A stretch of 62,527 nt of DNA, the filler included, from Sphacelaria rigidula (lineage: Eukaryota), in NCBI GenBank assembly GCA_964200075.2. It is 5 parts of 5 records of this genome, joined end to end, with 100 filler letters (N's around TTAATTAATTAA, not from the genome) between each part and the next. Parts side by side here need not be neighbours in the genome. Positions count along the whole stretch, not along the records: positions 37,579 to 50,003 come from CAXNAA020003788.1; 4 more parts are not named here. The stretch is one strand, 5' to 3'. The position numbers and the translations under genes were made by a program. The notes under the pieces were generated by a model. The model was not told where the DNA came from. It ran no database searches and worked only from the letters and a program-made list of their open reading frames with translations. Each line of letters begins with the position of its first letter. Within the stretch, counting starts at the first letter, position 1. Positions 12,429 to 62,210 of the stretch are shown piece after piece.

Positions 12429-12528
12429 NNNNNNNNNNNNNNNNNNNNNNNNNNNNNNNNNNNNNNNNNNNNTTAATTAATTAANNNNNNNNNNNNNNNN
12501 NNNNNNNNNNNNNNNNNNNNNNNNNNNN
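12429..12528. other. Artificial contig linker N44-TTAATTAATTAA-N44
   Basis: 100-bp spacer with stops in all six frames. Confidence 0.98.
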
Positions 12529-15800: not shown

Positions 15801-18426
15801 GCCACCAATGTCGGCGCCGCAAACATATTCTGCCCCCGAGTACAGAACTGACGACTCGTCTCCTGCTCCCGGAACAGATATTGACGTCGGCATTTCTGCC
15901 CCGTCGCCTATTCCCCCGCCGCTTGCCCTACCATGTTTGGTCGGCTCGCCAGCGGAAGGTTAACTACGCGAGTTTCGTGCCAGCTTCTCCCACCGCGATT
16001 GGGCTCGCGAACAATATGCAGAACCGCTATGTCGCGCAGCCATCCGGTACTTACAAGTTGACTGTCCAGTCCCTTTTCCATCCACACTTCTGGCCCCGGT
16101 TGGGACACTACCACCACCAGTTATTCATGATGTATACGAGCTCGTGCGAAAAAGCACCCTTTTTACTACGGATGAAGGCGTGCAACTACTCGTACGTCGG
16201 CCCACGCCCTTGACAGGCGCAATTGCCGCCTCAACTACGGGACGCACCGCACGACTACTCAATGACGAACCAACGCGCACATATTTACCCTTATTAATGC
16301 GCCCCTGGGTTATGAAAGGCTGCCACACAGATTTGTCATGTCACCTTGGCGTCACCCGCACCCTCGCGCTCTTGTAACGCTTCTACTGGTGGGTTGGCAT
16401 GGAAATTTCAACCTGCTTCTGGATTCGGCGATGCTTTGAATGCCAAGCCCGAAAAACTTCACGACAGACAGTACGCTGGCCCGTCATCTCTATGGGACTC
16501 CCCGACGAGCCCGGCCACCTTGTGTCCTTTGCCTACTTTGGCCCTCTCCCGACCACAGGTCGCAGCAACACCTACATCTTACTCCTCACTGACTGCTTTA
16601 GCCGCCACGCATCCATGTACGCGGTAACCGCCGCAGATTTCACTGCCGCCGGAACGGCCGACATACTGGTCCACGATTACATTAAGCACTATGGTTGCCC
16701 AAAGCGACTACTTTCAGACAATGGTCAGCAATTTCGCTCAGACCTCTCTGATGAGCTTTACAAGCTCCTGGACATCCGCAAAATTGCCACGAGCGCCTAC
16801 CACCCGAACGGTAACGGTGGTACCGAAAGAGTTAATCACACCATGACCCAGATGCTCTCTATGGTTGTCAATGACCGCCAAAATAACTGGGACCTACATT
16901 TCTCGCACATCATGTTGTCCTACAACAACTCGGTTAATGCCGCCACAGGCCTTCTTCCGAACGAACTCCATCTTGAACGCTACCCTCGGCTGCCTATCAC
17001 CGTGTTTGAGCGACACACGTTTGACGGCCACCAAGGATTGGATCAGGATCAGCTATCCTATCACGAGCTAGTGCACGCGCGACAACGCAAAGCGTTCACC
17101 CTCGTGCGCGAACAACACACTATCAACGCCTCGCGCCTAGAGAGATCTAACACTGCTCTCTACAACCTCATGCACAAACGCCCTAACTGGAAAGTTGGTG
17201 ATTGGGTGACTGCTGCCGAGATAGCCCCCCCCTAAACTGGCCAAAAACGTGCACGGAGGCGATGATCATAATTGACGTTCACGCTGGTTTCGTGCTTCAC
17301 GATGCGACTGATTTGGGCGTTGTAGCTGATTTCAGACTGCTACACTCCTCTCATGTGGGCGAAATTGCTGCAAACGAGCCCAATAGTGGGATCGCAGCCG
17401 GTTCGTTGGATGATGCCGGTGCACTTTGGGGGGGGGGGCTATCTCGGCATTAGTCGGGTTTGGATCTACAATAGTTTATCGACCATCCGCCAAGGCACCA
17501 GCAAAGCAGCCAACGGAACAATTTTGAAGACAAAATTGTCCCTCAATTGGACAGGACCATTCAAGATCCTGACAGTCGGACCATCGTCATCATCACCGGA
17601 TGAAAAACTCGTTGGTGACAAACTGCTCTATCTCGACTTGCCTCGCGACTTCCAGGGCAAAGACACCAAGCCCCGCGTCTCCGTGCACAGATGCAAACCC
17701 TGCACAAACCCGCATGATGCAAGCGACATGCCCAAGTACCTGCCTGCCGGACTCATACAGTATGTTCTTAACAGCTACTCGACCAAATCCCCGCCCTACC
17801 ACGTTACAACCGACGATGTGACGGAACAGCCCCTTCGGTTGGCTGTGTCCTCCATTTCCGGCCACCAGATAACCCGTGGTCGAGGAGGCAAGATCGCTGT
17901 CATGTATAAGACACACTGGCACGGTCTTCGGAGGGCGTCTTGGGAACGCGAATCCGACCTGCAATTGCACCGTCGTGCAATCCTCCTTTACTGGACGCAA
18001 TCTCAACATCAGCATCTTGCTCACAACAAGAAATATCGTAACATGCGCCGTGGCGCAGCAGCCCGCGAAGTTCACCGCAATCAGGGACTACGCTTTGTCG
18101 CCGATGGTTACGAACTTGTACCCTCCAAGACTTGTAAGACGAAGTTCTTCGCGAACCAGCGACTCCTGCCCAAGGGCAGCTTCCTTGGGTTCAAAGGCAG
18201 CGACAACCTCTGGTGGTTGGGTCAGACCCACTCCGCTAACCTGGTTTCGGCCGCCACATACATCGTGCGCTTCATCGATGACCCTGGACCCATACAGCTC
18301 AAGCTTCGGCCAGCGCTATATACCACCAGCCCATCTGCACCACGCGGATCCTGGTGTCTCCAGCGACTTCGCCGCGGTCTCCAGCGCAACATCGACCACA
18401 CCCACGACGTCCACGCCTCGCTTTGA
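12874..18426 (+). mobile_element. Degenerate Ty3/Gypsy (chromovirus-like) LTR retrotransposon pol: protease-RT-RNase H-integrase-chromodomain
   Basis: Protease LLDSGS (GAT at 13000). RT SPWASP, FDLASGF and YLDD (14522). RNase H LHTDA...ELE...YTDH. Integrase CH..CHLG...CFEC and core SDNG...YHPNGNGGTER. WTGPFKI, then chromodomain VSSISGHQ...MYKTHWHG...SWERESDL. Gypsy domain order. Multiple stops (13210, 13942, 14059, 14437, 16375) and frameshifts. No LTR pair can be confirmed because the contig is cut at the 5' side. Confidence 0.95.
17208..17455. mobile_element. MITE (GAC...GATAGCCCCCC type) inserted in the Gypsy integrase
   Basis: TIR GACTGCTGCCGAGATAGCCCCCCC / GGGGGGGCTATCTCGGCATTAGTC. TSD GGGT at 17204-17207 and 17456-17459. 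Removing it restores the in-frame GDWVWIYN. Confidence 0.93.
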
Positions 18427-24953: not shown

Positions 24954-25053
24954 NNNNNNNNNNNNNNNNNNNNNNNNNNNNNNNNNNNNNNNNNNNNTTA
25001 ATTAATTAANNNNNNNNNNNNNNNNNNNNNNNNNNNNNNNNNNNNNNNNNNNN
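24954..25053. other. Artificial contig linker
   Basis: N44-TTAATTAATTAA-N44. Confidence 0.98.
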
Positions 25054-26280: not shown

Positions 26281-26643
26281 CTGTACGTCCCCAGTTCCTC
26301 AATGTCAAAGCTCAGTTCTGATTCGTGGTTCGTCTTTTCCCCCTCCGTCGTTTCTTCAGCGGTGGCAACAAGAGGACGGTAATCTACAGCAAATACTCCT
26401 TCCAGGTTACCCGCCATCTCTCCGACGCGAACCAGGCGCACATGCGGAGAAGTGCAGCGCCACCACCCGCCTCCTCCTCCTGAGTGGTTCAACGATTTGG
26501 AGACGGGGGGGGGGGGGGGGGGGGGGTGGGGGTTACACGCCTTAGCTTGTGGCGGGNNNNNNNNNNCCCCGGCGGAAAAACGGGCCCACGGCGGGGAGGG
26601 GACCCCCCCCCCCCCCCCCCCCCCCCTGGGGGGGTTAAAAGGT

Positions 26644-26674
<31 letters not shown>

Positions 26675-28447
26675 GTAGTGGTTACATGCCTTAGCTGTTC
26701 GACGGACGGTCACGTGTCCTCAATAAGGAGCATTCGGCACAGAACAGGGGCAGTGCAATTATGATTATGCATGCCGCAGTCAACGGACCGTTGACTTCGT
26801 ATCCCTACGAAGCCGGGGCGGAGCACGCCGGGTTTTCGCCGAACCAGGGTCGCAATCACCAAGAGCGGAGCGCGGTGATGTGTTCGGCAAGTCGCACGAG
26901 GGGTGACCTGCATCCGGCTATGATTATTCGACCCGAAGCGTACTGATTATCTTACATATGGATGACAGCCTACAATGAGCTGCTTCGTTTTCTGGTATCG
27001 CCCCTTCCAGAGACAACCACGAGTTACAAAATGCCTCATGAGTATCTCCCCATTTCACCAGCGCGTATTAGGACCACCCTCTTTTCATCTAACTCAACAA
27101 CAACTCATGGTTACCGCGCAAGACGGGAGGGTGGGAGAGAGGGGGGCGTACTCATTTGTTGCTTGCCTTAGTCGTTTGACTATTGACCACGCATCCCTTT
27201 CGAGACGNNNNGGGGGGCGGTGGGGGGGGGGGGGGGGGGGGGGGGGGGGAAGCGTGTTCGTATTGCACACGCCTCACTATTACGCAGCGACGCGAACGTT
27301 CTAGCCATTTGGTGTTGGTTTGGTCCGGTCATTCCTATGAAAGGTATCGACCCTGCTTAGAATTATGTTGCTTTCTTGACCTTCCTTGCAGGTTCTTCCT
27401 GTGTTCCCGTGCCCTACATCGTCTACACGTTTGTCTGTGTGTGGGGTATTCCTATATAAGCTTTCGGCCCGAATACAAGGTCCCAATCCCTGTTCGTTCT
27501 GGTTGCGCTACCTATAAATAGTACACCCCCCTTTGCACATTGGACGTTTTCTACGATAGCCCCCCCCCAAAGTGCCTGATGTGAGGAGGAAAAACCTTCA
27601 TGTAAATTGAAATAGAAAAGGCCGAGCACAACGAGCAGCTGGGAATTCCTACGCTTGGATTCGTTCTCGCCGATGTCGCCCATATGAGGCGCTTCATGCA
27701 GCCTGAACCGGAACATCAGGCGCTGTACAACCATTTTTTTCGTGACACTTTTGGGCTGGTTTGGGGGGGGTATCATAGAAAGTGTCATTGGTAGTGGCTC
27801 TCTCCTAAACTTCCTAGCGATACTTCCTGCTGGCGTTGTGCAGGGCTACCTCGACTGTACACCCATCTCTTTATCGTTGATCGGACGCTGTAGTATGCAG
27901 GCACTTGCAATACATCGGTCGAGTACGAAGCCCCCATTTTTTGTTGGTTTTGTGTAGGGTTACCCACTGTATCCCCCCCCCACACACATTATTTTTGATC
28001 GACTTTTTTACGGCATCAACACTGTCTATGGTCCCCATATAATGCCCCGTTCTCGATTGGCATTGTGTGAGGCTACCTACATTATGTTTTGTACCCTCCT
28101 CTGTGCTCCGTTTGGTCGATCGGCTCACCTGCCAATGCTGCCTCCCCTCCTACATTGTTGTTGTTGTTGGTGGTGGTGGTGGTGGGGTTGTCGGTGGGGG
28201 TTGTCGGGAAAGTGATGGGCTCATTCGGTCCGAGGGGGTTCGCTACTGTGATGAGGCGGCGAGTCACGCTGCGCACTGAACCCTCGAATTCCAGAGTTTC
28301 CTGGTTTGTTGAAGAGCACGGAAGTGCGTCCGAAAATACGCAAGTACGGCACGCAAGTACATATGTGCGCGAATACGCACGGGCGTTCTAATTGCGCGCA
28401 CATGGGTGAGTGGTATTCTGTACAAAATGAGCTGGTCTTCTTGTGTT

Positions 28448-37478: not shown

Positions 37479-37578
37479 NNNNNNNNNNNNNNNNNNNNNN
37501 NNNNNNNNNNNNNNNNNNNNNNTTAATTAATTAANNNNNNNNNNNNNNNNNNNNNNNNNNNNNNNNNNNNNNNNNNNN
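37479..37578. other. Artificial contig linker
   Basis: N44-TTAATTAATTAA-N44. Confidence 0.98.
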
Positions 37579-40817: not shown

Positions 40818-42725
40818 TCATCTGTCAGACGCCTCTCCTAGCTCCAACTTCACGCTTGAACTCTCCAACGTCTCGACTGATTCCACACCAACAAACCCGC
40901 CAAGAGACCCACATGCAACCGCCGGCGAACCGTACAGGCGTCCCGCACTCACATGAAAACTGCTGCCGCTGGAGCTACTCTTACCACCTTCACTGCTGCA
41001 ACCCCTTAAAGGGGCAGTATGCTCACTACACCCTCCCCTTCCAGCGCCACTGTGTGTAGGAGAAGGAGCTGCCACCTCTACCTTCATTTCTGTTCCTACC
41101 CTTTGCACGGACGCCACACGATCAGCCCTTGAGGGTAGCTGGCCCGAAAGCAACAGTGGTAGTATACGACTACGCGTGGCAACAGGAGCCACACTACGTC
41201 GAGCATCAATAACGTTGCCTGTAGAGGAACTCGAGCATGGTGCGCGCTTGCGTTTTGTTCTTCGCACGCAAGCAACGCTTCCTCCACCACCCTCGATTGT
41301 GTTACCGGTGAAGGTGACCTCCCGAGTGCTCACGTCTTCCATGCCGTGCACTGTCGCTGCTTCATGCGCAGTGGGATGCTGTCGGCACAACAGTGCCTCA
41401 TCGAGGTGGTCGTTATTGAGAATATCCAATTTCGAACGCCCTTTTTTGCTCGACGTTAAGCTCATCACATCCACCATTCCCGCCCCGGCATGCTGAGAGC
41501 AGAACTCCGCCTTCTTGCTTCCCGCTACACCACGCGACGCCCCTTTGGAGCAGCCCTCGTCGCCGCATTTCTTCTTCACCACATCCACCATTCCCGCCCT
41601 GGCATGCTTGGAGCAGCGGTCCCTCTGCTTGCTTCCCGCTACACCACATGATGGATACTTGGGGCAGCCCTCGTCACTACATTTCTTTGACACAACATCC
41701 ACCATTCCCGCCCTCGCATGCTTAGAGCAGAACTCCGCCTTCTTGCTTCTCGCTACACCAAACGATGGACGATTGAGGCATCCCTCCTCGATGCACCTCT
41801 TCTTCGTCACATTCACCATTCCCGCCTCGGCATGCTGAGAGCAGAACTCCGCCTTCTTGCTTTTCGCTACACCAAACGATGGACGATTGAGGCATCCCTC
41901 CTCGCCGCACCTCTTCTTCGTCACATTCACCATTCCCGCCTCGGCATGCTGAGAGCAGAACTCCGCCTTCTTGCTCCCTGCTACACCATACGACGGCAGT
42001 TTGGAGCAGGCCTTGTCGCCGCACCTCTTCTTCATCACATTCACCATTCCCGCCTTGGCATGCGGAGAGCAGAACTCCGCCTTCTTGCTTCCTGCTACAC
42101 CATACGACGGCGCCCTGTAGCAGCCCTTGCCGCCGCATCTCTTCTTTACCACATTCACCATTCCCGCCCTGACATGCTGAGAGCAGAACTCCGCCTTCTT
42201 GCTTCCCGCTACACCATACGACGGCCCTTTGGAGCAGCTCTCGTCGCCGCATCTCTTCTTTACATCCACCATTCCCGCCTTGGCATGCTTCATGCAGAAG
42301 TCCCTCTGCTTGCTTCCCGCCACACCATACGACGGCGCCCTGGAGCAGCCCTCGTAGCCGCATTTCTTTGACACAACATCCACCATTCCCACCTTGGCAT
42401 GCTCGAAGCAGAACTCCGCCTTCTTGCTTCCCTCTATACCATACGACGGCATTTTGGAGCAGCTCTCGTCGCCGCATCTCTTTGATTTCACGTTTACCAT
42501 CCCCGCCCTCGCATGCTTGGAGCAGAAGTCCCTCTGCTTGCTTCCCGCTACACCATATGATGGATACTTGGGACAGCCCTCGTCACCACATTTCTTCCCC
42601 ATCACATTCACCATTCCCGACCTGGCATGCTTGGAGCAGAACTCCGCCTTGTAGCCCGGTACACCACACGATGGCCGCTTCGAGCAGCCCTCGTTGATGC
42701 ACTCCCTTTTTATCACGCTGGCCAT
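40818..42725 (-). CDS. EsV-1-7 cysteine-rich repeat protein (11 tandem C-x4-C-x16-C-x2-H repeats of about 38 aa, plus a Ser/Gly-rich tail)
   Basis: Intact frame (ORF 40818-42863); first ATG at 42725 (MASVIKREC). Repeat consensus KKCGDEGCxxxPSYGVAGSKKAEFCSQHAKAGMVNV (114-bp DNA unit). Acceptor-like sites upstream mean a 5' exon is possible. Confidence 0.9.
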   Translation of the reverse strand: MASVIKRECINEGCSKRPSCGVPGYKAEFCSKHARSGMVNVMGKKCGDEGCPKYPSYGVAGSKQRDFCSKHARAGMVNVKSKRCGDESCSKMPSYGIEGSKKAEFCFEHAKVGMVDVVSKKCGYEGCSRAPSYGVAGSKQRDFCMKHAKAGMVDVKKRCGDESCSKGPSYGVAGSKKAEFCSQHVRAGMVNVVKKRCGGKGCYRAPSYGVAGSKKAEFCSPHAKAGMVNVMKKRCGDKACSKLPSYGVAGSKKAEFCSQHAEAGMVNVTKKRCGEEGCLNRPSFGVAKSKKAEFCSQHAEAGMVNVTKKRCIEEGCLNRPSFGVARSKKAEFCSKHARAGMVDVVSKKCSDEGCPKYPSCGVAGSKQRDRCSKHARAGMVDVVKKKCGDEGCSKGASRGVAGSKKAEFCSQHAGAGMVDVMSLTSSKKGRSKLDILNNDHLDEALLCRQHPTAHEAATVHGMEDVSTREVTFTGNTIEGGGGSVACVRRTKRKRAPCSSSSTGNVIDARRSVAPVATRSRILPLLLSGQLPSRADRVASVQRVGTEMKVEVAAPSPTHSGAGRGGCSEHTAPLRGCSSEGGKSSSSGSSFHVSAGRLYGSPAVACGSLGGFVGVESVETLESSSVKLELGEASDR

Positions 42726-50003: not shown

Positions 50004-50103
50004 NNNNNNNNNNNNNNNNNNNNNNNNNNNNNNNNNNNNNNNNNNNNTTAATTAATTAANNNNNNNNNNNNNNNNNNNNNNNNNNNNNNNNNNNNNNNNN
50101 NNN
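50004..50103. other. Artificial contig linker
   Basis: N44-TTAATTAATTAA-N44. Confidence 0.98.
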
Positions 50104-51657: not shown

Positions 51658-54044
51658 CTTGTGGGGGAGGCGAACGGGGTACCCCGATCGGGCGACGCGA
51701 ACGGCCTCGAGCACACCTCCGTACCGCAGCTGCTCCATGACGCGTACCCGGTTCACCTCGTCAGGCTCTGCGCTATCGTTGGGCTTGATGCACCGGATGT
51801 AGTGCGGCCGTGTGTCCCTGTGTTGAGGCGTTACACAACAAGAGCAAAAACGTTCAAAGAAAGGAGATAATCCAAAAATGGATGCAAAGACTCAACGAGC
51901 CCGATCGAAATGACGCAAAAGCACCCGATCTCATTTATTTGACTGCAGAAGAAGTAAGCAGCTCACAACGTGAGACACACACACACAACGTCCACAGTAA
52001 ACATAGCGATGTCTGTGTATTTCAGGGGCCAAATTCCAACATCTGGAACATGTCAAGACTGAACAAAACACACGCATGTACTTTACTCTCTAGCGCCGAT
52101 GCGCCAGCAGGTCGCTTCCCCCCCCTTGATGGTCTCATGACTATGGCAAGCATGATCATGAGTACACCCCCAAGGGATTCGGAATCGTTGTTTGCGCAGG
52201 AGAAAAAAAGCCTAATTGTAAAACAAAGGGGGTTCGGGCTCGCTGGGCCATTGCCACGCACATAGCTCGTGTCCTCTCGTGGTCATGTCTACACACCACA
52301 CCACACCGCCAGCAGTTGCTGTCTCGCAGTCGCGTACGCACGCATCTCCATTTCGTAAAGCATCAACGGCAACGTTAGCGAGATACGACGAAGGCGTAGA
52401 GGGGGTAGCCATACTGCTCCCTAAAAAGCGTTGCAAAATCGCAAGATACTTTGGACCACAACATGTGGGCTCACCGAATCATCTCCATGAGGTGGTGGAG
52501 TTGCTCCTTGAACTGCGTGCCGACGGTCGGCTTCAACCCGGCGATGCCGGCGGGGGTTGCCTCCTTCTTAGGAGCCGGCTTCTTCCCCTTGGTTTTCACC
52601 TTCTTGCCTGACGGAAACGAGTTACGGTACATATCCAAGTCCCCAGTTGGAACCCTCTAACCGAAAACACACATACGTACATTCATCATATTGGAGCAAA
52701 CGGCTTTGCTCAAGACAGAGCCGTCACGATCATCAACATCGGCGTCACCGTATGAGCACCTCTTGCCAGACGCATTTGCCCAGCCTGGGCATCCATAAAC
52801 TGCCCCCCCCTCTCCCCCCTCCATCATAGTCTTCGTTTTTCCCCGCCCTCAGGACGATTCGATTGTCTTTAGGAATCAACCCATCTCTTCCCTACGCATT
52901 TTTTTCGAAAATATTCTACATGGGGGGGGGGGGGGTATTTGCCTTGAAAATAAAGACCAACGACCCAACTTTCCAGTAGTCTCGAGTCTTTGTCGTTATA
53001 AAAAATGAAGCTCCGGTGCTCCGGTGCTTGTTGAAGAGGATCTTCCAAAATCCCTTGACCGCGAAACTTCGGGATCTTTCACTACAGGACCACCCATGTA
53101 GAGAAAAACCGAGTCACCTTGCCTAAAATACAACAGTACCACACGGAGACAAACCGGTGAGAGCCCCATGTGTCACCCCATGATGACACACATGAACTAA
53201 AAATAACACACTCACCCCCGGTGGGAGAGAACAAGTTGACGACGAATGCGTTGGAGCTGCTGGCGAATAGCTCGTCCGACTCCTTAGGAAGCTCGTCCTT
53301 GTTCTTATCGCAGAACGTTTGCACGTGGTACTCCACCTATGCCAGGGGTCACGCAGTCAAAAATAACCCACAAAACCCGTCAAATTCACGTACGTCCTCA
53401 CAAAATATGACTATACATCCACTACTTCACGGGTCGGACGAATAAATCATTTAGCGTGATTGCTTGGTACCGTACGCATCAATTCTTGGGCTTTGTATTG
53501 AGCGTGGCAACCCATGTACGCGCAGTCTAGGCACGCGGAATGGCGCAAAAGTTGCGTGGGAACCTTTTTCACCACCGGTCGACTTTCTTCTCTCCTTCGA
53601 GTAATCAGGCCTGAAAAATCGTGCATTTGGTGATTCGAACCGGCGATGATTCGTCCAAGCCGTGCACTACTTGACCTTGATAGTCATCTCCAAGTGAAAA
53701 TGATGCCAACTCCACGGTTGATTCACACTCCCTGGGACGGTCAGGGGTGTAAGGAGTGACGCGATTTCCCACCTGCCCAGCGTAGTGCTTGACGGCGAAG
53801 CAGAGCTTGACCTTGAGCGGCTTGTCGGCGAAGAAGCGGTCGCTATTCTCGTGCTCCTTGTACAGGCGGCTGGCGTAGTTCTCGTCCGTCCCTCGGATGC
53901 CCATGCGACACTCATCGTCGAGCATGGTCAGCAGCCCTTTCTGCTTGCCCTCGATGAGGTCCAGACAGTCCTTTTGAAGGAAACAAATCAAACCAGAAGG
54001 AGAAAACAGTGAAAAAAAGCGCACCTGTATGTGTATTGTATGTG

Positions 54045-54096
<52 letters not shown>

Positions 54097-57000
54097 CTTC
54101 CAGTATCACTTCTGGACGCCAGTCTACTCCTTTCGAAATGTGTGGGCCCATCCGGGGGTTTTGTCGCGACAAACAGTTTGGCAAGCACCGCAAGGAGGTC
54201 AACACAGGAGTTCTCTTTTAAAAACTTATCAACCTTCCTTCTGCGGTGATTGTCATACTTTTATCGCGAGAAGGGATGAGCGTTCCCTATCCCTCGTTAA
54301 CATTGACGTCGAATTCGTGTACCGACGACATTGTCGCTCACCACTGTTGGACATCATATGAGAAAAAAAAACATATCATGTGACTGCACCGAGATTCGAA
54401 CCCACGTTCCTACCTGCAGAAGGCTTCGATGCTACCAACCATGCTACCGGGGGGACCGGTGTGCCTGTCGACATAATAGAACCAACTCCACCACCAAAGC
54501 AAAAAAGCACCCATCACCACCGCTATAGCACAAAGAGACGGGAAGAAAAACTAAAGCAAAACGAGACACCACACACGAGAACCAAATGTGCATCTTGTTG
54601 TCCGGGAACTCCACGAAGGAATATTGGAAGAAAAAAAAACTGATAAGAGATGAAAGAAACTCCAAGGACAGAGCCAGAACCAGAACCAAAAACAATAACC
54701 TAAGCTACACTTGGTACTTCGGAAACTCCACGAGGGACATTTGAGAGAAGAAAGGAATAAAGGATGGAAAACGAACAACGTATGACAAGATGGAATGAAA
54801 ATTCTCAAACCAGAACCAGAACCAGAACCAAAACGTAAACTGCACCTGGTTGTCCGGAAACTCCACGAAGGACCATTGGATCCCCTCCTTCGTGTACTCC
54901 TTCTGCTCCATCTTGAACACGAACTGGTTAAATTGCTGCTGCAGAGTTTCGTTCGTGTAGTTGATGCACAGCTGTTCAAAGCTGCCAGTCAAAACGCACG
55001 AACCACACACAGCAACGACCAAAACACAAATACGGCGCAATAACGAATGGTGAGGAAAATAAAACCCCAAATACACATGAACCCCCCGTCCCTCCTTCCA
55101 AGTCCGGCCCGGCGAACAACCGGCATGCTCCATCGTGGCTTTGTAGGGATGCGAGGTCGACTGTCTCATGACTACGGCATGCAAGATCTCGAGTCGCCCT
55201 CGCCCCCAGGTGAAATCACCCCGTACTTGTTACATAACGTATACGAAAAGCTGCTTGAGGCTACAAGTCACACACACAAGACACGGCGATAACAAAAAAA
55301 AAGGAGACACCCGAAAACTTTCCCCTCCCTGTTCTTGTCTTTAGCACATCGGACAACTCAACTAATAGAACTCGTTTCCGTATAAAACTCAGCTACTGAG
55401 TTATACGGTATACCTCAGTGGGACCCATTTCCCCTGGCTAAGCTGTACTGTATAGGTCAGCGGTACCATTTCCCCGGCAGAGTTACATCATATAACTCAG
55501 CGGTACTCTTTCCACTACATGTCTTGTATCACGCAACTGTATAGACCATCTTCGACTTGTTGGGAGGCGGGACCCAATATAGAACAAGCAAAAACAAAAG
55601 ATGAAAGATCTGGAACACGTCACTCCGAGAAAACGCATACAGCACGTATAATAAATACGATAGACCGTGTGGCAAGAGCCGATGGTGAGAGTATACCTGT
55701 TATGCTCGAAGCACTCGAATCCAAAAATGTCCAGCACGCCGATGGAGGCCTTTACCTCCTTCCTTTCGCAGCGGATGTGAGTGTTGATCGTGGCCACCAG
55801 CCAGTTGAACAGCTGCCCGTAGAAAGCTTTGGCAAGCGCGTCTCGAGCATCGTACGCCTGCCACAAAACGTAACGTCGGAACACGCACAAATAACTGTCG
55901 ACAATAACACGTGCTGAAAATTAAAAAAGAAAAAAAAAATACGACACCGGAAACGTTCTCGCGTGGAAAAGGGAAAATACAGACAAGTAGCCAACAATTC
56001 TCGTACAAAACCACGTGCAATAATCCATCTTCATTGACTGCCGCATATCAAGTGTTCCTCCAGGGATCCAGCCGTGGTACAGCCACATGACAAACATACA
56101 CCTACACAAAAAAGACGACGAGGAGATACGAACACAACGGGTATAATTCGCAGTGTAGGTGTCCCTTTTGTCGTGAATATAAACAGCACTCGTGGACTAG
56201 TACGGTCTAAAGCAAGGCAGTGGGTGCGTAGGTTGCATAGGAGTTCTTATTGCCGACGAGATGGATAACCCCAAAAGCAACTAATTGTTGGCTCGGCAAC
56301 GCACCAACGAAAAATAACCCCACCATATCTAGGCTTCACGGCAGCCCTTCTCGCTATGACTATTATTTCTCCTCGTATTATATCTTCTTCTGCCACGACC
56401 TTGCGATCAGGGGCGCTATATTTTTGGAAAGGGCCAGCGTAAGAAACCAAAACAACGACAACCAACGAGTATCTGACGACAGCACAATGTAAGAAAAACC
56501 AAACCATGCACACAGGACACACGTCATCACCGACACAAACACGAACCTGGTGGTCCTTGAGCTTGATGGTCGTCTTCTCTCTCCGAGGACCGACTTCGAT
56601 AGTCTTACTCGTTAACGCACGCAACAGCCCGTCCTTGGGAAGGTAACACAACCGGCACACGCGCTCCATGCACTCTCTAAGAAAGGCGTCGCAAAAAATC
56701 AAACAACCAAACAAGGAAACAGTCGGCAAACAATCACGACAAATGACACACACGTTGTCACGTCAACGGCATGATAAAAACCATGTTCCAGCGTACGCAC
56801 AAAGGATGTCCAATACGACGTTTCACGTAGACCCTGCAGAATCTCCGATATTGATGAAAGGCGATCTCCTTTGCCCATTTTCCTCATCATCCGGGAATGG
56901 GCTCATACCTTTCATGCTGAAAAAAAAAAACGTTTAAGAGGGGGAGGAAGCCATTTTAAACATATGATTTGTCTTTCTCCGCACATGTTGACGTTGTGTT

Positions 57001-60000
57001 GGGTTCGTGTTTCATCCCATTTGTTTTGGGCGCCCACACCTTCCAGCGTGTGAGAGCGCACCAGCAGGTCGCACTGAAGTAAGGCCACAATCACTTCATG
57101 TTTTCTCCTCTACACCTTCCTTCCTCGGTGCTTGCCAAAACCTCGATTTTCAAATCACGAGAAGGGCTGGTCGTCCCTCCTTCATTCCTTGCCTGTGCTT
57201 TGTTCTGGTCCTTTCCCTCCCCCTGTTTCCCCATTTCATTTTAATTGCTGTTCTTACTCTACTCTACTTGTCTGTTCCACCCTTTTCTGTCTTTCTTCAC
57301 TTTTTTTCGGCGAGGGTTAACACTTTTGTATCGTCTCGGGTACGTCTGTCCTGTAACGACGGCTAGATCCCTGGGGGAAGACATTCAAGTGTGACGATTA
57401 AATCGATTTTCCTTGTCTAAAGTTAAGTCGAAATGAGCATCTTCCACTGCCGGGCACTTTGTGAGAATAGAGACAAACAATTTGTGACACCAGGGGGCAG
57501 GGGGAAAAAATGAAGAACAAGAATAATATAAAACCGAAGACAGCGCCCAAATAAACTTGAAAAAATCACTTTTGTTTCCATATATTGAAGATATAACGCG
57601 GAAATATTTTCGTTTCACAGTATCTCCATTGTTCAAAAGCGAATGCGCAGCCCCGCGGTCCATCGTTCCGGCTATGACCCGCTCCCAACGGAATAGATTT
57701 GTTTAATCGTCTTCATTCAGGCGTTCACGTTGCTCATCTCATGGTTTTGAAAAATCACAACATAACATCACCGTTAAAAAATGACAGAAACGTAGTGGTA
57801 CACAATTGGAAAAGTAACCATCGTCAGTCGACTTCCGATCTTTATTCAATACACTGTATATGATTTCACTATCAAACTTTCATGATTTTCACGAGGCCAA
57901 ATTTGACTATATTAAATAAAAATGGCACAAGATCCACTCACACGACGTCCTCATCCTCCGATAAAACCGCTGCCTCGTCGTCCGCGTTTGATTCGAACTC
58001 CAGCTCGCCCAGGTGGATCAGACCGGCGATGATGTCAAAGATCGCTTGTACATTATCGGCATCAAATCCCATCGTCTGCAGCCAACGGAGACAGAACATT
58101 CACAACGGAACAAAAGTGAGGCTAAACACGAATGACAAAACGATTCCTACCAATTCACATCATGCCTGCTAGCGGACACTCTTCTCTCTCACTACTGTTG
58201 TTCTTGTTTTAGTTTTCTTCGCATCAAAACCCATTCCGCTCTCGGGGCAGTGCCTTCTACAATCCGAACATGTCCCATCTGATGCGCACGCCTTCCGTGA
58301 CGTCACAGGCTAAAAAATAAAAAAAAAAATCAAGCCCAGAAGATGGATGAATCCTTCATCAACCGTTGTTCATTTGGGGGTCATTGAGTAAAATTTTCGG
58401 TCATGAGCAACGCGATAGTCTTTGAATGTGCATCGAGACCTGGGACACGATACGCATCAGCCGCAACAAATGTTCTCACCGATAAGGCGTTTTTGGTTTT
58501 TTCGAATTCGTCCTCGTCCTCCACCTGCCTTAGCTCAAAGCAATCCCCCTGGTTGACGAAGTGATATTCCTCAGGTCCTGCCCACACCAAACGTACACAC
58601 AAGCAACAGGGAAAACAGCTGAGACGCTTACGACAACAGTAAATGATCCGGATCTTTACTACGGGAGCACATGGGCGCAAATGGACAAGAAGGAAGCACG
58701 ATTGTCGAGATTGACATACATGGACCGAGCGGAGAATGACAACTTTGAAAGTAGCGAGTGCACCAGTACACTGTACCCATGTCATTTTCTGAAAGAAAAA
58801 AAAAAAAACTCTAAACTTGGCAATAGGAAACACATACAAACACAATTACTTTGCCTCTGTCTTCTCCGACAGTAACCAAACCAACTATTTTTTTTCAATG
58901 ACACGAACACACCGAGAAACAAGTCCCGTCTACCCGTTTGACCGCGAGCAATGCTCCAAATTTTGGACCGGCATTGTTTCCACTCCTTCTTCACGTGAAA
59001 GTGACGTTGATTCGCAAATGGTCCCCACCGCTCGCAAGCAAAGGGTGACCCTTCTGGGACCGGATTCCCAGAAACATGTTTTTTTTTGCACGCAGGGACT
59101 TTTTTTAATCAGCGTCACTTTTACTCGAAAACGACTGAACATGATGCCGATTCGCAAAAAAGCCCTTGCGGTCCCAAAAGGGTAAAGCTATAGTGCAGAG
59201 GCCGGTACTTTCTATTTGTTTTCTTGACTTTGTCGCGTTTTTTTTTGTTCGCTCGTTTCGATTTTTCAATCCACTCCCTGTGTTTGTTTCAAATTTTCCG
59301 CTCTCCTCACTCCTCTCCAGCCAGTGTTTCAGTCCCGTGTTTCATCTCGGGTGCGTCCGTCTATCACGTATCCTTGGCTGGATCCCTGGGGAATCAGGCA
59401 ATATGCTACACCCAATCAATCGGATCTATCTCTCAAAAGAAGTAACATACACGCCTCCTTACCCTCCAGCTCCCATCGCTCCTTCTCCTCCTCGCTGCCC
59501 CCTTTACACATCTGGTAAAACACGTGAAAGTTTCGTTCGTTCTCCGACTGCGTTGGGATACGCACCTGGCATCGTGAGGGGGGAGACAGAGAAACAGGAC
59601 ACCAAAAGACGAGAACAACGACTTTCAAGCCATCGAAGCGCACACCTGAGCATTCACGGTTCGAAAGAATCATCGCTGGTTCAAATAACCAAATCCACGA
59701 TATTTCAGGTCTGATTGCTCGAAACAGAGAGAAGAGTTGACTACTTGTCGAAAGGGTCTCCACACAATTTTTGCGCCATTGCACGTGCTTGGGCTGCGCG
59801 TGCCCGAGTTGCAACGCTGAAAACAGAGCCGAAAGATTGATTCATACGGTACGACTCAATTACACTGAAATCAAGTACTTTTCAGACGAATCATTGATTT
59901 GTCCGATTCGTGTAAGCTTTGCATACGCGGACAGCTCACCAGCTACCAAAAAATATTGAATTGAAGAGAACTCTCAGATTGATTTGTTGTACGAAAAAAA

Positions 60001-60254
60001 GAAGCACGTGACAGCAGTATCTGGGCAGACAAAGCGCTACCTTTGCGCTACTCCACGTGCTTGGCGTCCAGAGCTGTCGGGGAGCTAATAATACGGAGAG
60101 AAAAATTGACACATGAGCTAGGTCATAATCCAGATCAGTACTTTAACAAGAAGTAATATTGAGGGAGCTCACGAGCTGTCAGGCGTGTGAAACTTTGAGA
60201 ATAAAAACATACGTGATTCGGTGCATCAATTGATTAGATTACAATCGTTGATTA

Positions 60255-60297
<43 letters not shown>

Positions 60298-62210
60298 TAT
60301 TGATCAATTGATTATCGCACATGAACTGATTGATTCTCGGAGGACCCAGTGGTGGTCATCATCCACAAGATGGGCGCGCACCCAAGCAAGGCAAACAAAA
60401 CTAACAAAACTTGACAAAACAAAAACAAGAGAAAAAAAAAGCAAAAGCAAACACATAACACCGACACCAAACGAGAAGAAGAAAGAAAAAGGAAAGAGGG
60501 ACGTGTGGCTAGGGGGAAACGGGTATCACAAGGCCAAATCCCACCCCCAATTTCTCATCCCACACAAACAATATAGATCAACATCAACATGATGCCGGGA
60601 CAGCCCCCCTCCGCCCCCCTCCTCCCTGAACTAGCCCCGCAACCGTCACGGAGAAAATCACCGTACAGCACATGATGGTTGGTCTCAGACTCGATGAAGC
60701 CCCTCATATGAACGACATCGGCAAAAAAGATCCAAAGCCGGGAGGTCCTTGCTCCACGGTGTGCTCGGCTTTCGACATTTCGATTTACATGTAGATCTTG
60801 CCTCCGACTAGCCCCGTTTCTGCTGGGGGCTACCGCGACATCACTCACATAAACATCCTTGCCCACGACATACCAACCACTTCCTGCGTCATGATTTCCT
60901 TTTTTTTCCCCCGTACAAGCGAAGCCCCATAGGCATACAATACGCGCCGTAGTGCGTCCCCCTTTTTGACAGCTGTATAATCTCTTGTCCAGGGCGTGGA
61001 TAATAACACCATCGCAAGACACACCACGACCTACCTTTTCGAGGAGATAGGTCTCGATGCTGGCACCCAGCAGGTTCCCTCGCTTGTCGAACATGAGCTC
61101 GATGAATTTACCGAACCTGTCCAAAGATAAAAAAATACATGACGATATAGCAAAGGATGAGGACACGAGTAGAGCAAGTATGCGGTTGAAGTTTGTTCTT
61201 GGTTATTGAAAATATATGAAGTTCGACCATTGAATCCACATACATTCACGACAAGATCGTACAGGGGTCTCCATACCTCATCAACACAACCTTTTTTATA
61301 GATTAAAAATGGTGGAAACGAAACAATGCTGTGAAGACATCGTCCGGATCATAACCAATCATGTCATGAATGAATGGGCATATCGTATAATGGTTGTCGA
61401 ACACCAAAACGTGGAAAGAGAATAATCCATTTTATTCTACATCAACAGATGAATAAGAAAAAGTCATCATCTTCATATTAGACAGAACAACAAATGTTCC
61501 AAGGTGCTAGCCCAACAAACACAATCGAAAGCGCAACGTTGTAACTCATGTTTCAAGGGTACCGCGAACTGATCCAGAGTCTCAATTTCGCCGCCACGGA
61601 ACCCCTCGAATTCTGAATTGATTGATCGATTGATTGATTGTCGCACATTCACTGACCACCCAGGGATTCAGGCGAGGTCACATGATAGACGTACCCGAGA
61701 TGAACCTCAAGACGAAAATACCCGCTCTAGGAAAGTGAAGAAAAGAGAAGCGTGAGGCAGACGCAGAAACATGAAACTGAGAAAAAAAATGACCAATGAC
61801 CTCTACAAACAATGCTTCAAGCAGAAAACGTCTTCAACAACAGCACACGCCGCCGTACCCAATCGAAAAGGAAAAAAAATCCGTGCGGACAGATTGCGGC
61901 TTTTTTCGAGCGCACTATTTTGGGCATGATAAATGGGCCACGCAAAGACGGGAGACGGAGCTCACCGGGAAGAGTTGTCGTTACGAATTGTCCTCGCGTT
62001 ACCGAAGGCCTCGAGGATAGGATTGCTCTGCAGCACCCTATCCATGATGGATCCCTTCTCGAGCTCCACCCCGTCGTCCCCGTTCCCCACCGTCGTTAGA
62101 TACTTCATGACGAACTTGGTGCTCTCTGTCTTTCCCGCACCGCTCTCCCCTGAGATCAAGACAGACTGATTTACCGGACCCATCCCCGCCGACTTTCCTG
62201 CGTGAATACC
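51658..62210 (-). CDS. Myosin heavy chain motor domain (stramenopile type, possibly Myo29-like); partial, 12 exons
   Basis: GT-AG, phase-consistent exons: 62210-61966, 61116-61035, 59565-59463, 58577-58480, 58075-57942, 56676-56547, 55857-55697, 54981-54846, 53970-53773, 53336-53216, 52607-52475, 51817-51658. P-loop GESGAGKT, switch I NDNSSRFGK, switch [40 protein letters not shown]. The class assignment is tentative. Confidence 0.95.
53420..53670. repeat. Intronic repeat; inverted copy at about 59650-59915
   Basis: AATCAGGCCTGAAAAATCGTGCATTTGGTGATTCGAACCGGCGATGATTC matches the reverse complement of 59667-59717. Similarity extends over about 250 bp. Confidence 0.75.
54095..54460 (-). mobile_element. 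tRNA-derived SINE (family A, diverged) ending in a (CA)n tail; partial relative at about 56995-57135
   Basis: Head ACCGGTCCCCCCGGTAGCATGGTTGGTAGCATCG...GGGTTCGAATCTC; body shared with 30913-31266. Confidence 0.75.

What the first reader, a model, noticed from the sequence alone, without database searches (positions are those of the whole stretch)
41465..42712. EsV-1-7 array with a hypervariable triplet per repeat: candidate modular recognition code
Seen: 11 repeats share a near-invariant scaffold (C-x4-C-xxx-PS[YF]GV...C-x2-H-..GMV[ND]V). The three residues after the second Cys vary: SKR, PKY, SKM, SRA, SKG, YRA, SKL, LNR, LNR, PKY, SKG. The third position is the most variable. The repeats are basic and the tail has an NLS-like RRTKRKR. 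Known: EsV-1-7 C3H repeats occur in the phaeovirus EsV-1 and in the Ectocarpus developmental regulator IMMEDIATE UPRIGHT. I know of no established ligand. TALE, PPR and C2H2 arrays encode specificity in a few variable residues on a fixed scaffold. Inference: a potentially programmable zinc-dependent DNA/RNA-binding repeat system.
Basis: partly seen in the sequence, partly recalled or inferred. Interest (0 to 1): 0.8.

Follow-up and report, generated by a model that had tools for sequence, protein, structure and literature searches.

The report
EsV-1-7 zinc-finger array, one variable residue
This is an intact brown-alga gene for a basic protein made of 11 tandem EsV-1-7 cysteine-rich repeats, a known but biochemically unexplained family, and one residue per repeat behaves statistically like a module-specific contact residue, which gives a concrete handle for finding what these proteins bind.

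Summary
An intronless ORF on the minus strand (40818-42725, 635 aa) carries 11 tandem 36-38-aa EsV-1-7 repeats (Pfam PF19114, E 2.5e-162), with all 44 Cys/His ligand positions intact. The triplets are exactly as listed. The array is strongly basic (net +43), and RRTKRKR lies in a tail shared only with two Sphacelaria rigidula proteins.

The "hypervariable triplet" reduces to one special residue, the third after Cys2 (HMM column 11). The middle residue is conserved (K/T) and the first is an ordinary variable site.

- Column 11 is the most diverse position between repeats of one protein (0.80 against at most 0.63 for ten other variable columns, 103 arrays).
- It differs about twice as often between near-identical sibling repeats (0.64 against 0.30).
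- It almost never holds Asp or Glu (6 of 722).
- In six ortholog groups it changed less than other variable columns (2 of 36 against 72 of 347).
- A replicate set keeps the direction, but with a weaker margin.
- Unnamed metagenome clusters show no ortholog conservation.

This is the pattern expected of a module-specific contact residue. The ligand is unknown: no solved structure matches, and DNA or RNA binding and programmability are untested. The gene is a new member of a known family. The recognition-code idea is partly supported and now testable.

The parts
40818..42725 (-). Complete single-exon coding sequence, 635 aa plus stop (P0001). Start MASVIKRE and end ...GEASDR both match the annotated ends of the Sphacelaria rigidula homologue P0002.
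41460..42707 (-). Array of 11 tandem EsV-1-7 repeats: r1 42600-42707, r2 42483-42596, r3 42369-42482, r4 42258-42368, r5 42144-42257, r6 42030-42143, r7 41916-42029, r8 41802-41915, r9 41688-41801, r10 41574-41687, r11 41460-41573. Each has C-x4-C-x15/16-C-x2-H.
42675..42677 (-). r1 column-11 codon CGG (R), the hypervariable residue Cys2+3
42564..42566 (-). r2 column-11 codon TAT (Y)
42450..42452 (-). r3 column-11 codon ATG (M)
42336..42338 (-). r4 column-11 codon GCG (A)
42225..42227 (-). r5 column-11 codon GGG (G)
42111..42113 (-). r6 column-11 codon GCG (A)
41997..41999 (-). r7 column-11 codon CTG (L)
41883..41885 (-). r8 column-11 codon CGT (R)
41769..41771 (-). r9 column-11 codon CGT (R)
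41655..41657 (-). r10 column-11 codon TAT (Y)
41541..41543 (-). r11 column-11 codon GGG (G)
40821..41459 (-). C-terminal non-repeat tail (aa 423-635). No Pfam family for aa 425-635. 64-67% identical to the tails of only two proteins, P0002 and P0004 (Sphacelaria rigidula).
41244..41264 (-). Basic patch RRTKRKR (aa 488-494), NLS-like. TKRKRAPC is conserved in P0002 and P0004.

Best explanation
What it is. A host nuclear, intronless gene of a brown alga whose closest named relatives are Sphacelaria rigidula proteins. It encodes a 635-aa, strongly basic protein. The protein has 11 beads-on-a-string EsV-1-7 modules of 36-38 aa, each with a Cys3His ligand set, followed by a lineage-specific tail that carries a conserved KRKR patch.

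Shown. Family membership. Intact ligand sets in all 11 repeats. A regular 38-aa period. Confident per-module fold predictions with two short strands (YGV and MVN) and a short turn at C-x2-H. One residue per module, the third after Cys2, is the position where modules of one protein differ most, yet it is not a free-running neutral site.

Inferred. Each module binds one metal ion, probably zinc. The segment after the Cys-x4-Cys knuckle exposes the Cys2+3 side chain as a ligand contact. New modules arise by tandem duplication and then diverge at that residue. The array reads an extended ligand module by module. The most likely ligand is a polyanion such as DNA or RNA in the nucleus, given the net charge of +43, the KRKR patch, the preference for R, Q, H and K, and the near-absence of D and E at that residue. 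The ligand itself is not shown.
For: Family and integrity.
- PF19114 E 2.5e-162 with 11 stretches.
- The four ligand columns are invariant in 11 of 11 repeats.
- Pairwise pN/pS is 0.191/0.285 over the array.
- The start and stop agree with P0002.
- AF2 pLDDT is about 90 over repeats 1-8 and 85.1 for a two-repeat piece.
- The period is 38 aa in 554 of 890 neighbouring repeat pairs, and 37-39 aa in 759 of 890.

Column 11 between repeats of one protein.
- Mean pairwise difference is 0.80 against 0.53-0.63 for ten other highly variable columns, in 103 proteins with at least 5 repeats.
- The bootstrap margin is 0.156 (CI 0.105-0.205). Column 11 exceeds the mean of the other variable columns in 89 of 103 proteins and is top or tied top in 35 of 103.
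- The result holds in named brown-algal arrays (39 of 42) and in the others (93 of 111).
- Among sibling repeats at least 90% identical at 23 scaffold columns (148 pairs, 50 proteins), column 11 differs in 0.64 against 0.30. The bootstrap margin over the next column is 0.22 (CI 0.11-0.32).
- In a non-overlapping set of 92 proteins, sibling pairs (n=43) give 0.63 against 0.26.

Column 11 is not neutral.
- Residues are R 167, Q 159, I 58, H 57... E 6, D 0 of 722, and D 1, E 3 of 461.
- It is the column least coupled to the others: mutual-information z of 2-7, against up to 25 for other pairs.
- In six ortholog groups at 75% identity or more it changed in 2 of 36 repeats, against 72 of 347 for other variable columns (Fisher P 0.026). 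For example, the string V-Y-R-I-L-Q-H-R is kept at 8 of 8 positions between two Ectocarpus species.
- It differs in 1 of 61 aligned repeat pairs in protein pairs at 75% identity or more.

In this window's array.
- Column 11 pN is 0.766 against an array-wide pS of 0.285.
- Parsimony counts 9.5-11 non-synonymous changes where 3.0-3.1 are expected at the synonymous rate (P 0.0012-0.0004, Bonferroni 0.046-0.015).

Charge and context.
- Net charge +43, pI 9.47.
- The surroundings are host-like: retrotransposon remnants and a multi-exon myosin gene, with no giant-virus hallmark in 57 ORFs.
Against: - No ligand, metal or localisation was measured.
- No solved structure matches significantly: Foldseek best E 1.9 and 0.45, VIA best Z 3.0. 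The weak rows are mostly protein-binding fingers (RING, B-box, PHD, LIM).
- In the replicate set column 11 is still top (0.78), but its margin over columns 31 (0.72) and 9 (0.71) is not significant (0.041, CI -0.023 to 0.101).
- In unnamed metagenome clusters column 11 changes as fast as other variable columns or faster: 15 of 56 against 106 of 552 (P 0.22). Over all 20 clusters the rate ratio is 1.10 (CI 0.72-1.70).
- The ortholog-group test rests on only six groups.
- The repeat tree is poorly supported. The tree-free lower bound for column 11 is 6 non-synonymous changes (P 0.094).
- About a quarter of column-11 residues are hydrophobic (I, Y, V, L, F, W, M), and this array uses G, A, M and L. 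That is unlike a classical base-reading alphabet.
- Column-11 strings share 0-1 of 7 positions between P0001 and its 68%-identical relative P0002.
- Linker columns 37 and 38 are also hot.
Confidence: 0.5

Rival explanations
1. The modules are protein- or peptide-binding zinc fingers of the treble-clef kind (as in RING, B-box, PHD and LIM). The Cys2+3 residue then tunes protein partners, for example in host-virus conflict or in developmental complexes, and not nucleic acid.
For: The only structural resemblances, all weak, are to RING domains (Z 3.0-2.0), a B-box, PHD, LIM, the nsp13 zinc-binding domain and ArfGAP fingers. The family is shared with giant viruses (Atlas clusters that are 93-100% Nucleocytoviricota). 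It is hugely expanded in brown algae (passages of 10.1101/2024.02.19.579948). Column 11 turns over quickly in unnamed metagenome clusters (15 of 56). About a quarter of column-11 residues are hydrophobic.
Against: The array carries a net charge of +43, and D and E are nearly excluded at column 11. That would suit an acidic protein surface, but it is more typical of polyanion binding. One diverging residue per 38 aa gives a thin protein interface. No structural match reaches significance.
Confidence: 0.25
2. Column 11 is simply the least constrained surface position of a structural metal-binding repeat. The variation is drift after tandem duplication and there is no modular recognition.
For: Family-wide entropy at column 11 (3.51 bits) ties with columns 4, 9, 27 and 30 (3.42-3.52). 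The replicate margin is not significant. The tree-free bound gives P 0.094. Linker positions are similarly hot. This array uses unremarkable G, A, M and L. Related repeats share the codon (r2/r10 TAT, r8/r9 CGT, r5/r11 GGG), as simple inheritance would give.
Against: A free site should be the fastest between orthologs too. Instead its rate ratio to other variable columns is 1.10 (CI 0.72-1.70), against an implied 3.2 between sibling repeats. In six ortholog groups it changed in 2 of 36 repeats against 72 of 347 (P 0.026). Its composition is far from neutral: R+Q is 45%, and D+E is 6 of 722.
Confidence: 0.17
3. The array is a decaying or non-functional tandem repeat, for example an unexpressed recent duplicate or a relic of a viral insertion.
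For: The gene is intronless in an intron-rich neighbourhood (myosin exons). pN/pS of 0.62-0.71 between repeats is relaxed. The protein was not among the listed database hits.
Against: The frame is open for 635 aa, with all 44 ligand residues intact. Start, stop and tail are conserved with two paralogues. No viral hallmark genes were found in 57 flanking ORFs. Contigs of two runs of one study, guessed to be RNA, hold the unique tail (40845-41510) without differences. That is only a weak hint.
Confidence: 0.03
4. The repeats bind a metal other than zinc, for example copper through Cys/His/Met, and act in metal handling and not in recognition.
For: A profile of the 11 repeats hits only the plastocyanin copper loop, which has the same C-x2-H-x4-M spacing (E 0.27-1.4). 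The Met is kept in 688 of 722 repeats.
Against: The E-values are at chance level. The Cys3His set with C-x4-C and C-x2-H is a standard structural zinc site (established knowledge). The module-specific variable residue and the basic charge are not explained by metal handling.
Confidence: 0.03

Closest known systems
EsV-1-7 cysteine-rich repeat family (Pfam PF19114 / IPR043822), including EsV-1 gene 7 and Ectocarpus IMMEDIATE UPRIGHT (IMM)
   Same: Same repeat: 526.8 bits, 11 stretches. Same C-x4-C-x16-C-x2-H spacing, tandem arrays and no other Pfam domain. The closest hits are brown-algal EsV-1-7 proteins.
   Different: It is not an IMM orthologue. IMM is defined by a unique N-terminal domain ahead of five repeats (methods passage of 10.1101/2024.02.19.579948). 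Here repeat 1 starts at aa 7. With 11 repeats it is at the long end of the sample: 2 of 193 proteins have 11 by regex.
Sphacelaria rigidula proteins P0002 (484 aa, 7 repeats) and P0004 (420 aa, 5 repeats)
   Same: 68% and 66% identity. They share the C-terminal tail, including TKRKRAPC and the last residues. They are the only 2 proteins found with this tail.
   Different: Repeat number is 11 against 7 and 5. Column-11 strings are RYMAGALRRYG against WKRHWAR and RKKGM, with 0-1 of 7 positions shared in the BLAST registers.
Modular repeat readers: TALE (repeat-variable diresidue), PPR, PUF (analogy only, recalled knowledge)
   Same: Fixed-length tandem modules. One position varies between modules almost independently of the rest of the module and is kept between orthologues.
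   Different: There is no homology: Pfam finds none of these families. The module is a metal-bound mini-domain, not a helical repeat. Many other columns also vary. The alphabet at the variable residue is broad (19 residue types). No nucleotide-per-module relation is known.
Tandem C2H2 zinc-finger arrays such as KRAB-ZNFs (analogy only, recalled knowledge)
   Same: Basic tandem metal-finger arrays in large, clustered, fast-expanding gene families, with diversification concentrated at a few positions per finger.
   Different: The ligand set and spacing differ (Cys3His, 38-aa unit). There is no C2H2 Pfam hit and no significant fold match.
SBP-domain first zinc site (Cys3His) and Pfam Zf_WRKY19 (PF24906)
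   Same: SBP domains have a Cys3His first finger (PMC5768680 passages). I recall its spacing as C-x4-C-x16-C-x2-H, the same as here. There is a weak Pfam hit of one window repeat to SBP profile positions 1-35 (E 0.1). Zf_WRKY19 co-hits occur in 3 homologues.
   Different: The SBP hit is far below the cut-off (13.3 against 27 bits). No SBP structure appears in the fold-search rows shown. The Zf_WRKY19 matches cover only profile positions 1-13 of 24.

Membership tests
EsV-1-7 repeat family (PF19114) | Match to the Pfam model above its gathering score | tested here: met
   526.8 bits against a cut-off of 25, E 2.5e-162, 11 stretches
EsV-1-7 repeat family (PF19114) | Cys-x4-Cys ... Cys-x2-His ligand pattern in every repeat | tested here: met
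   C3, C8, C25 and H28 are invariant in 11 of 11 repeats. The C2-C3 spacing is 16 in 10 repeats and 15 in r1.
EsV-1-7 repeat family (PF19114) | Tandem arrangement with a period of about 38 aa | tested here: met
   TRF period 114 nt x 10.9 copies. Family-wide, 37-39 aa in 759 of 890 neighbouring pairs.
EsV-1-7 repeat family (PF19114) | Metal (zinc) binding by the repeat | not testable with these tools
   Inferred from the invariant ligands only. No coordinates or metal were available from the models.
IMMEDIATE UPRIGHT orthologue | IMM-specific N-terminal domain ahead of five repeats (definition taken from 10.1101/2024.02.19.579948 methods passage) | tested here: not met
   Repeat 1 begins at aa 7 and there are 11 repeats. 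No IMM sequence was compared directly.
Gene of an integrated giant-virus (NCLDV) insert | Flanking viral hallmark genes | tested here: not met
   57 ORFs of the window were scanned against Pfam. The only hits were RVT_1, RT_RNaseH, rve (retrotransposon) and Myosin_head exons. Only ORFs of about 125 aa or more were scanned, 57 of the 101 listed at 110 aa or more.
TALE/PPR/PUF-type modular code (works-like, not homology) | Fixed-length modules with a small set of module-specific residues on a conserved scaffold | tested here: inconclusive
   Column 11 stands out. However, ten other columns are also highly variable, and the replicate margin is not significant.
TALE/PPR/PUF-type modular code (works-like, not homology) | One module reads one nucleotide, and specificity can be reprogrammed by swapping the residue | not testable with these tools
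   No tool here models nucleic acid. Experiments are needed.
TALE/PPR/PUF/C2H2 families (homology) | Match to the family profiles | tested here: not met
   Pfam scan of P0001 at E up to 0.01 lists only PF19114 and two spurious low hits.
SBP domain | Match to PF03110 above its cut-off, and both zinc sites | tested here: not met
   13.3 bits against a cut-off of 27, E 0.1, covering only profile positions 1-35 of 75.
Any solved zinc-finger fold | Significant structural match of the predicted module | tested here: inconclusive
   Foldseek found 0 hits at E up to 1e-3 with either model. VIA wide found 9 chains with Z of 2 or more, the best at 3.0.

The most novel reading that the evidence does not exclude
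EsV-1-7 arrays are a previously unrecognised class of modular metal-finger readers of DNA or RNA. In this reading the residue three positions after Cys2 sets the specificity of each 38-aa module. The explosive, clustered expansion of the family in brown algae and giant viruses is then a KRAB-ZNF-like diversification of target specificities, for example against transposons or integrated viruses, or for developmental targets such as those of IMM. If so, the array would be reprogrammable by swapping that residue.
Probability: 0.13. Interest if true: 0.85.

Novelty: new member of a known kind. Interest (0 to 1): 0.5.

Why it matters
EsV-1-7 proteins form the largest orthogroup across brown-algal genomes. 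The family includes the developmental regulator IMM (passages of 10.64898/2026.04.27.720984). It counts 2018 proteins in 31 genomes (passages of 10.1101/2024.02.19.579948). Here it covers 4588 clusters at 50% identity. Even so, the papers I could read describe it as of unknown function.

A single position per module that is diverse between modules, compositionally biased and conserved between brown-algal orthologues turns "what do these repeats bind?" into a designed experiment: mutate or swap that residue and read out binding. If the ligand is nucleic acid, this would be a new modular recognition scaffold. If it is protein, it would point to the interface used by a family shared between giant viruses and their hosts.

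Tried and rejected
- Whole-genome search: no genome is held for this window.
- Macaisne et al. 2017, the paper that defines the family, is not held by DOI or PubMed id. Whether it already shows a per-position logo or notes this residue is unknown to me. Supplementary tables of the Phaeoexplorer paper, such as Table S17, were not seen.
- The term 'EsV-1-7' occurs in 11 held papers. I read passages of four, and none discusses per-position variability. A search on WRKY19 zinc fingers gave nothing useful.
- Fold searches found no significant match. These were Foldseek pdb with the 424-aa and 84-aa models, and VIA wide with the 84-aa model.
- A profile search of PDB sequences gave only chance-level plastocyanin rows.
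- ESM Atlas could not read the window protein. With the stored homologue P0020 it returned only EsV-1-7 clusters.
- Expression: no RNA holder is listed on record. Contigs of runs guessed to be RNA cover the gene, but the guess is unverified. Parts without cover and the many joints inside the array (repeat and paralogue artefacts) were not used.
- Close orthologues of this gene: none were found. The best hit is 68% identical, and the tail search found only two proteins.
- The first ortholog-cluster count may include register shifts between sibling repeats. I repeated it with equal-length members only.
Solvent exposure and the 'one face' test could therefore not be done.
- Complex prediction was not used, because no protein partner is claimed.
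Full report
**What is there**

The finding lies in one open reading frame on the minus strand, 40818..42725, 635 aa from the ATG. Pfam assigns it to EsV_1_7_cys (PF19114) with 526.8 bits, against a cut-off of 25, in 11 stretches. Tandem Repeats Finder reports a 114-nt unit x 10.9 copies at 41462-42694, 81% matches. A repeat HMM run over all six frames finds exactly these 11 units (41460-42707) and nothing else in the 62.5-kb window.

The four ligand columns (C3, C8, C25, H28) are intact in 11 of 11 repeats. The array is strongly basic (81 K+R, 38 D+E, pI 9.47). RRTKRKR sits at aa 488-494.

**Context and relatives**

- The window is ordinary eukaryotic nuclear DNA. It holds retrotransposon remnants (RVT_1, RT_RNaseH, rve at 14.4-17.2 kb) and a multi-exon myosin gene (53.6-61.2 kb, minus strand). 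No giant-virus hallmark appears among 57 ORFs scanned.
- The closest proteins are from Sphacelaria rigidula: P0002 (68% identical, 7 repeats) and P0004 (66%, 5 repeats). They share the start, the stop and the whole 211-aa tail, including TKRKRAPC. A search with the tail alone finds only these two.
- The family is large: 4588 clusters at 50% identity match the repeat profile at E up to 1e-3. Atlas clusters show it in Nucleocytoviricota and green algae as well.
- In the papers I could read (passages only), the family is the largest brown-algal orthogroup and has 2018 members in 31 genomes. It carries no other Pfam domain, contains IMM, and is described as of unknown function or as a possible new zinc finger.

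**Is the triplet hypervariable?**

Within this array the third triplet position (HMM column 11) has the highest entropy, 2.48 bits. The middle position has only 1.31 bits. Columns 30, 27 and 5 are close behind at 2.12, 2.0 and 1.87.

Family-wide I used 722 near-full repeats from 121 proteins; 158 of 880 partial repeats were dropped. There, column 11 (3.51 bits) ties with columns 4, 9, 27 and 30 (3.42-3.52), and the middle position is K/T (2.24 bits). By plain entropy, then, the triplet is not unique.

**What does single out column 11**

1. Between repeats of one protein it is the most diverse column.
   - The mean pairwise difference is 0.80, against 0.53-0.63 for ten other highly variable columns and 0.69 for a linker column (103 proteins with at least 5 repeats).
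   - The bootstrap margin is 0.156 (CI 0.105-0.205). It exceeds the mean of the others in 89 of 103 proteins.
   - The result holds in named brown-algal arrays (39 of 42) and in the rest (93 of 111).
2. Among sibling repeats that are at least 90% identical at 23 scaffold columns (148 pairs from 50 proteins), it differs in 0.64. Column 9 differs in 0.41 and the other variable columns pooled in 0.30 (by identity bin).
3. It varies almost independently of the rest of the repeat. Mutual-information z is 2-7, against up to 25 for other column pairs. It is only weakly coupled to column 9 (z 3.4), so the triplet is not a co-varying unit.
4. Its composition is far from neutral: R 167, Q 159, I 58, H 57, Y 38, K 34 ... 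E 6, D 0 of 722.
5. Between orthologues it is not fast.
   - In six groups at 75% identity or more (an isoform pair excluded) it changed in 2 of 36 repeats, against 72 of 347 for the other variable columns (Fisher P 0.026). Column 9 changed in 8 of 36.
   - In protein pairs at 75% identity or more it differs in 1 of 61 aligned repeats. The figures rise to 28 of 57 at 60-75% identity and 116 of 171 at 50-60%.

**Results that weaken this**

- In 92 non-overlapping proteins (461 repeats, 73 arrays) column 11 is again top (0.78). Its margin over columns 31 and 9 is not significant (0.041, CI -0.023 to 0.101). The sibling-pair contrast does replicate (0.63 against 0.26, n=43), and so does the D/E avoidance (4 of 461).
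- In 20 clusters at 90% identity the column-11 rate equals that of other variable columns (23 of 138 against 200 of 1323; ratio 1.10, CI 0.72-1.70).
- With equal-length members only, unnamed metagenome clusters give 15 of 56 against 106 of 552 (P 0.22). Ectocarpus clusters give 0 of 12 against 6 of 117.
- Ortholog conservation is therefore seen in brown-algal groups and not in the unnamed clusters, and it rests on few groups.

**Codon-level test in the window**

Pairwise pS over the array is 0.285 and pN is 0.191. Column 11 has pN 0.766, column 9 has 0.476 and column 10 has 0.251.

On repeat trees built with or without the triplet codons, parsimony gives 9.5-11 non-synonymous changes at column 11. 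At the array's synonymous rate 3.0-3.1 are expected (P 0.0012-0.0004; Bonferroni 0.046-0.015). Linker column 38 is second.

The trees are weakly supported. The tree-free minimum is 6 non-synonymous changes (P 0.094). Related repeats share the codon (r2/r10, r8/r9, r5/r11).

**Structure**

- AF2 with 114 homologues gives pLDDT of about 90 for repeats 1-8. The last three repeats score low, probably because the alignment covers them poorly.
- A two-repeat piece gives pLDDT 85.1 and pTM 0.55. Each repeat has strands at YGV and MVN and a bridge at the conserved Phe.
- No solved structure matches significantly. The weak rows are assorted zinc modules.

**Reading**

The gene is a new, intact member of a known family. 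One residue per module, Cys2+3, behaves like a module-specific determinant, and the ligand is unknown. I consider a modular binder of an extended polyanion the most likely mechanism. A protein-binding array and a merely unconstrained site are the main rivals.

Noticed in passing
window 41460-42707, repeat columns 25-33 (FCSxHAxAGMV): The only PDB sequence rows for the repeat profile are plastocyanin copper loops with the same C-x2-H-x4-M spacing (E 0.27-1.4, chance level). The Met is kept in 688 of 722 repeats, which is unusually strict for a core residue. The metal identity is untested.
   Followed up: partly
window 14399-17235 (+): Remnants of an LTR retrotransposon: RVT_1 (14399-14836), RT_RNaseH (14742-15287) and rve integrase (16378-17235), in separate frames.
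   Followed up: partly
window 53605-61202 (-): Four ORF pieces match successive parts of the Myosin_head domain. This is a multi-exon myosin gene, and it contrasts with the intronless EsV-1-7 gene.
   Followed up: no
window 12429-12528, 24954-25053, 37479-37578, 50004-50103 (also 26557-26566, 27208-27211): Pairs of 44-N runs recur about every 12,525 bases. They look like masked or withheld stretches, not assembly gaps.
   Followed up: no
window 41718-42371 (+) and 41722-42477 (-, other frame): Long ORFs of 217 and 251 aa overlap the array in other frames. They are themselves repetitive and are most simply a by-product of the repeat. They were not tested further.
   Followed up: no
homologues P0017, P0019, P0044; window 42252-42590: Three homologues also pass or approach the Pfam Zf_WRKY19 (PF24906) cut-off over the Cys-x4-Cys knuckle. 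One window repeat gives a weak SBP-domain hit (E 0.1) over the SBP first zinc site. This is a possible distant link between these Cys3His fingers. It is unproven.
   Followed up: partly
repeat linker columns 37-38 (e.g. window 42483-42488): The two linker residues after GMV(N/D)V are the other hot spot. Column 38 has 10 non-synonymous changes against 3.6-3.7 expected in this array. Column 37 differs in 0.53 of sibling pairs.
   Followed up: partly
P0001 / P0002 / P0004: The three tail-sharing proteins have 11, 7 and 5 repeats and unrelated column-11 strings. The array evolves by gain and loss of units within this lineage-specific subfamily.
   Followed up: partly
unnamed clusters P0109, P0104, P0121 and others: In metagenome-derived clusters at 90% identity, column 11 changes at 15 of 56 sites. 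In Ectocarpus clusters it changes at 0 of 12. Turnover of this residue may differ between lineages, possibly between viral and algal ones. The origin of these clusters is unknown.
   Followed up: partly
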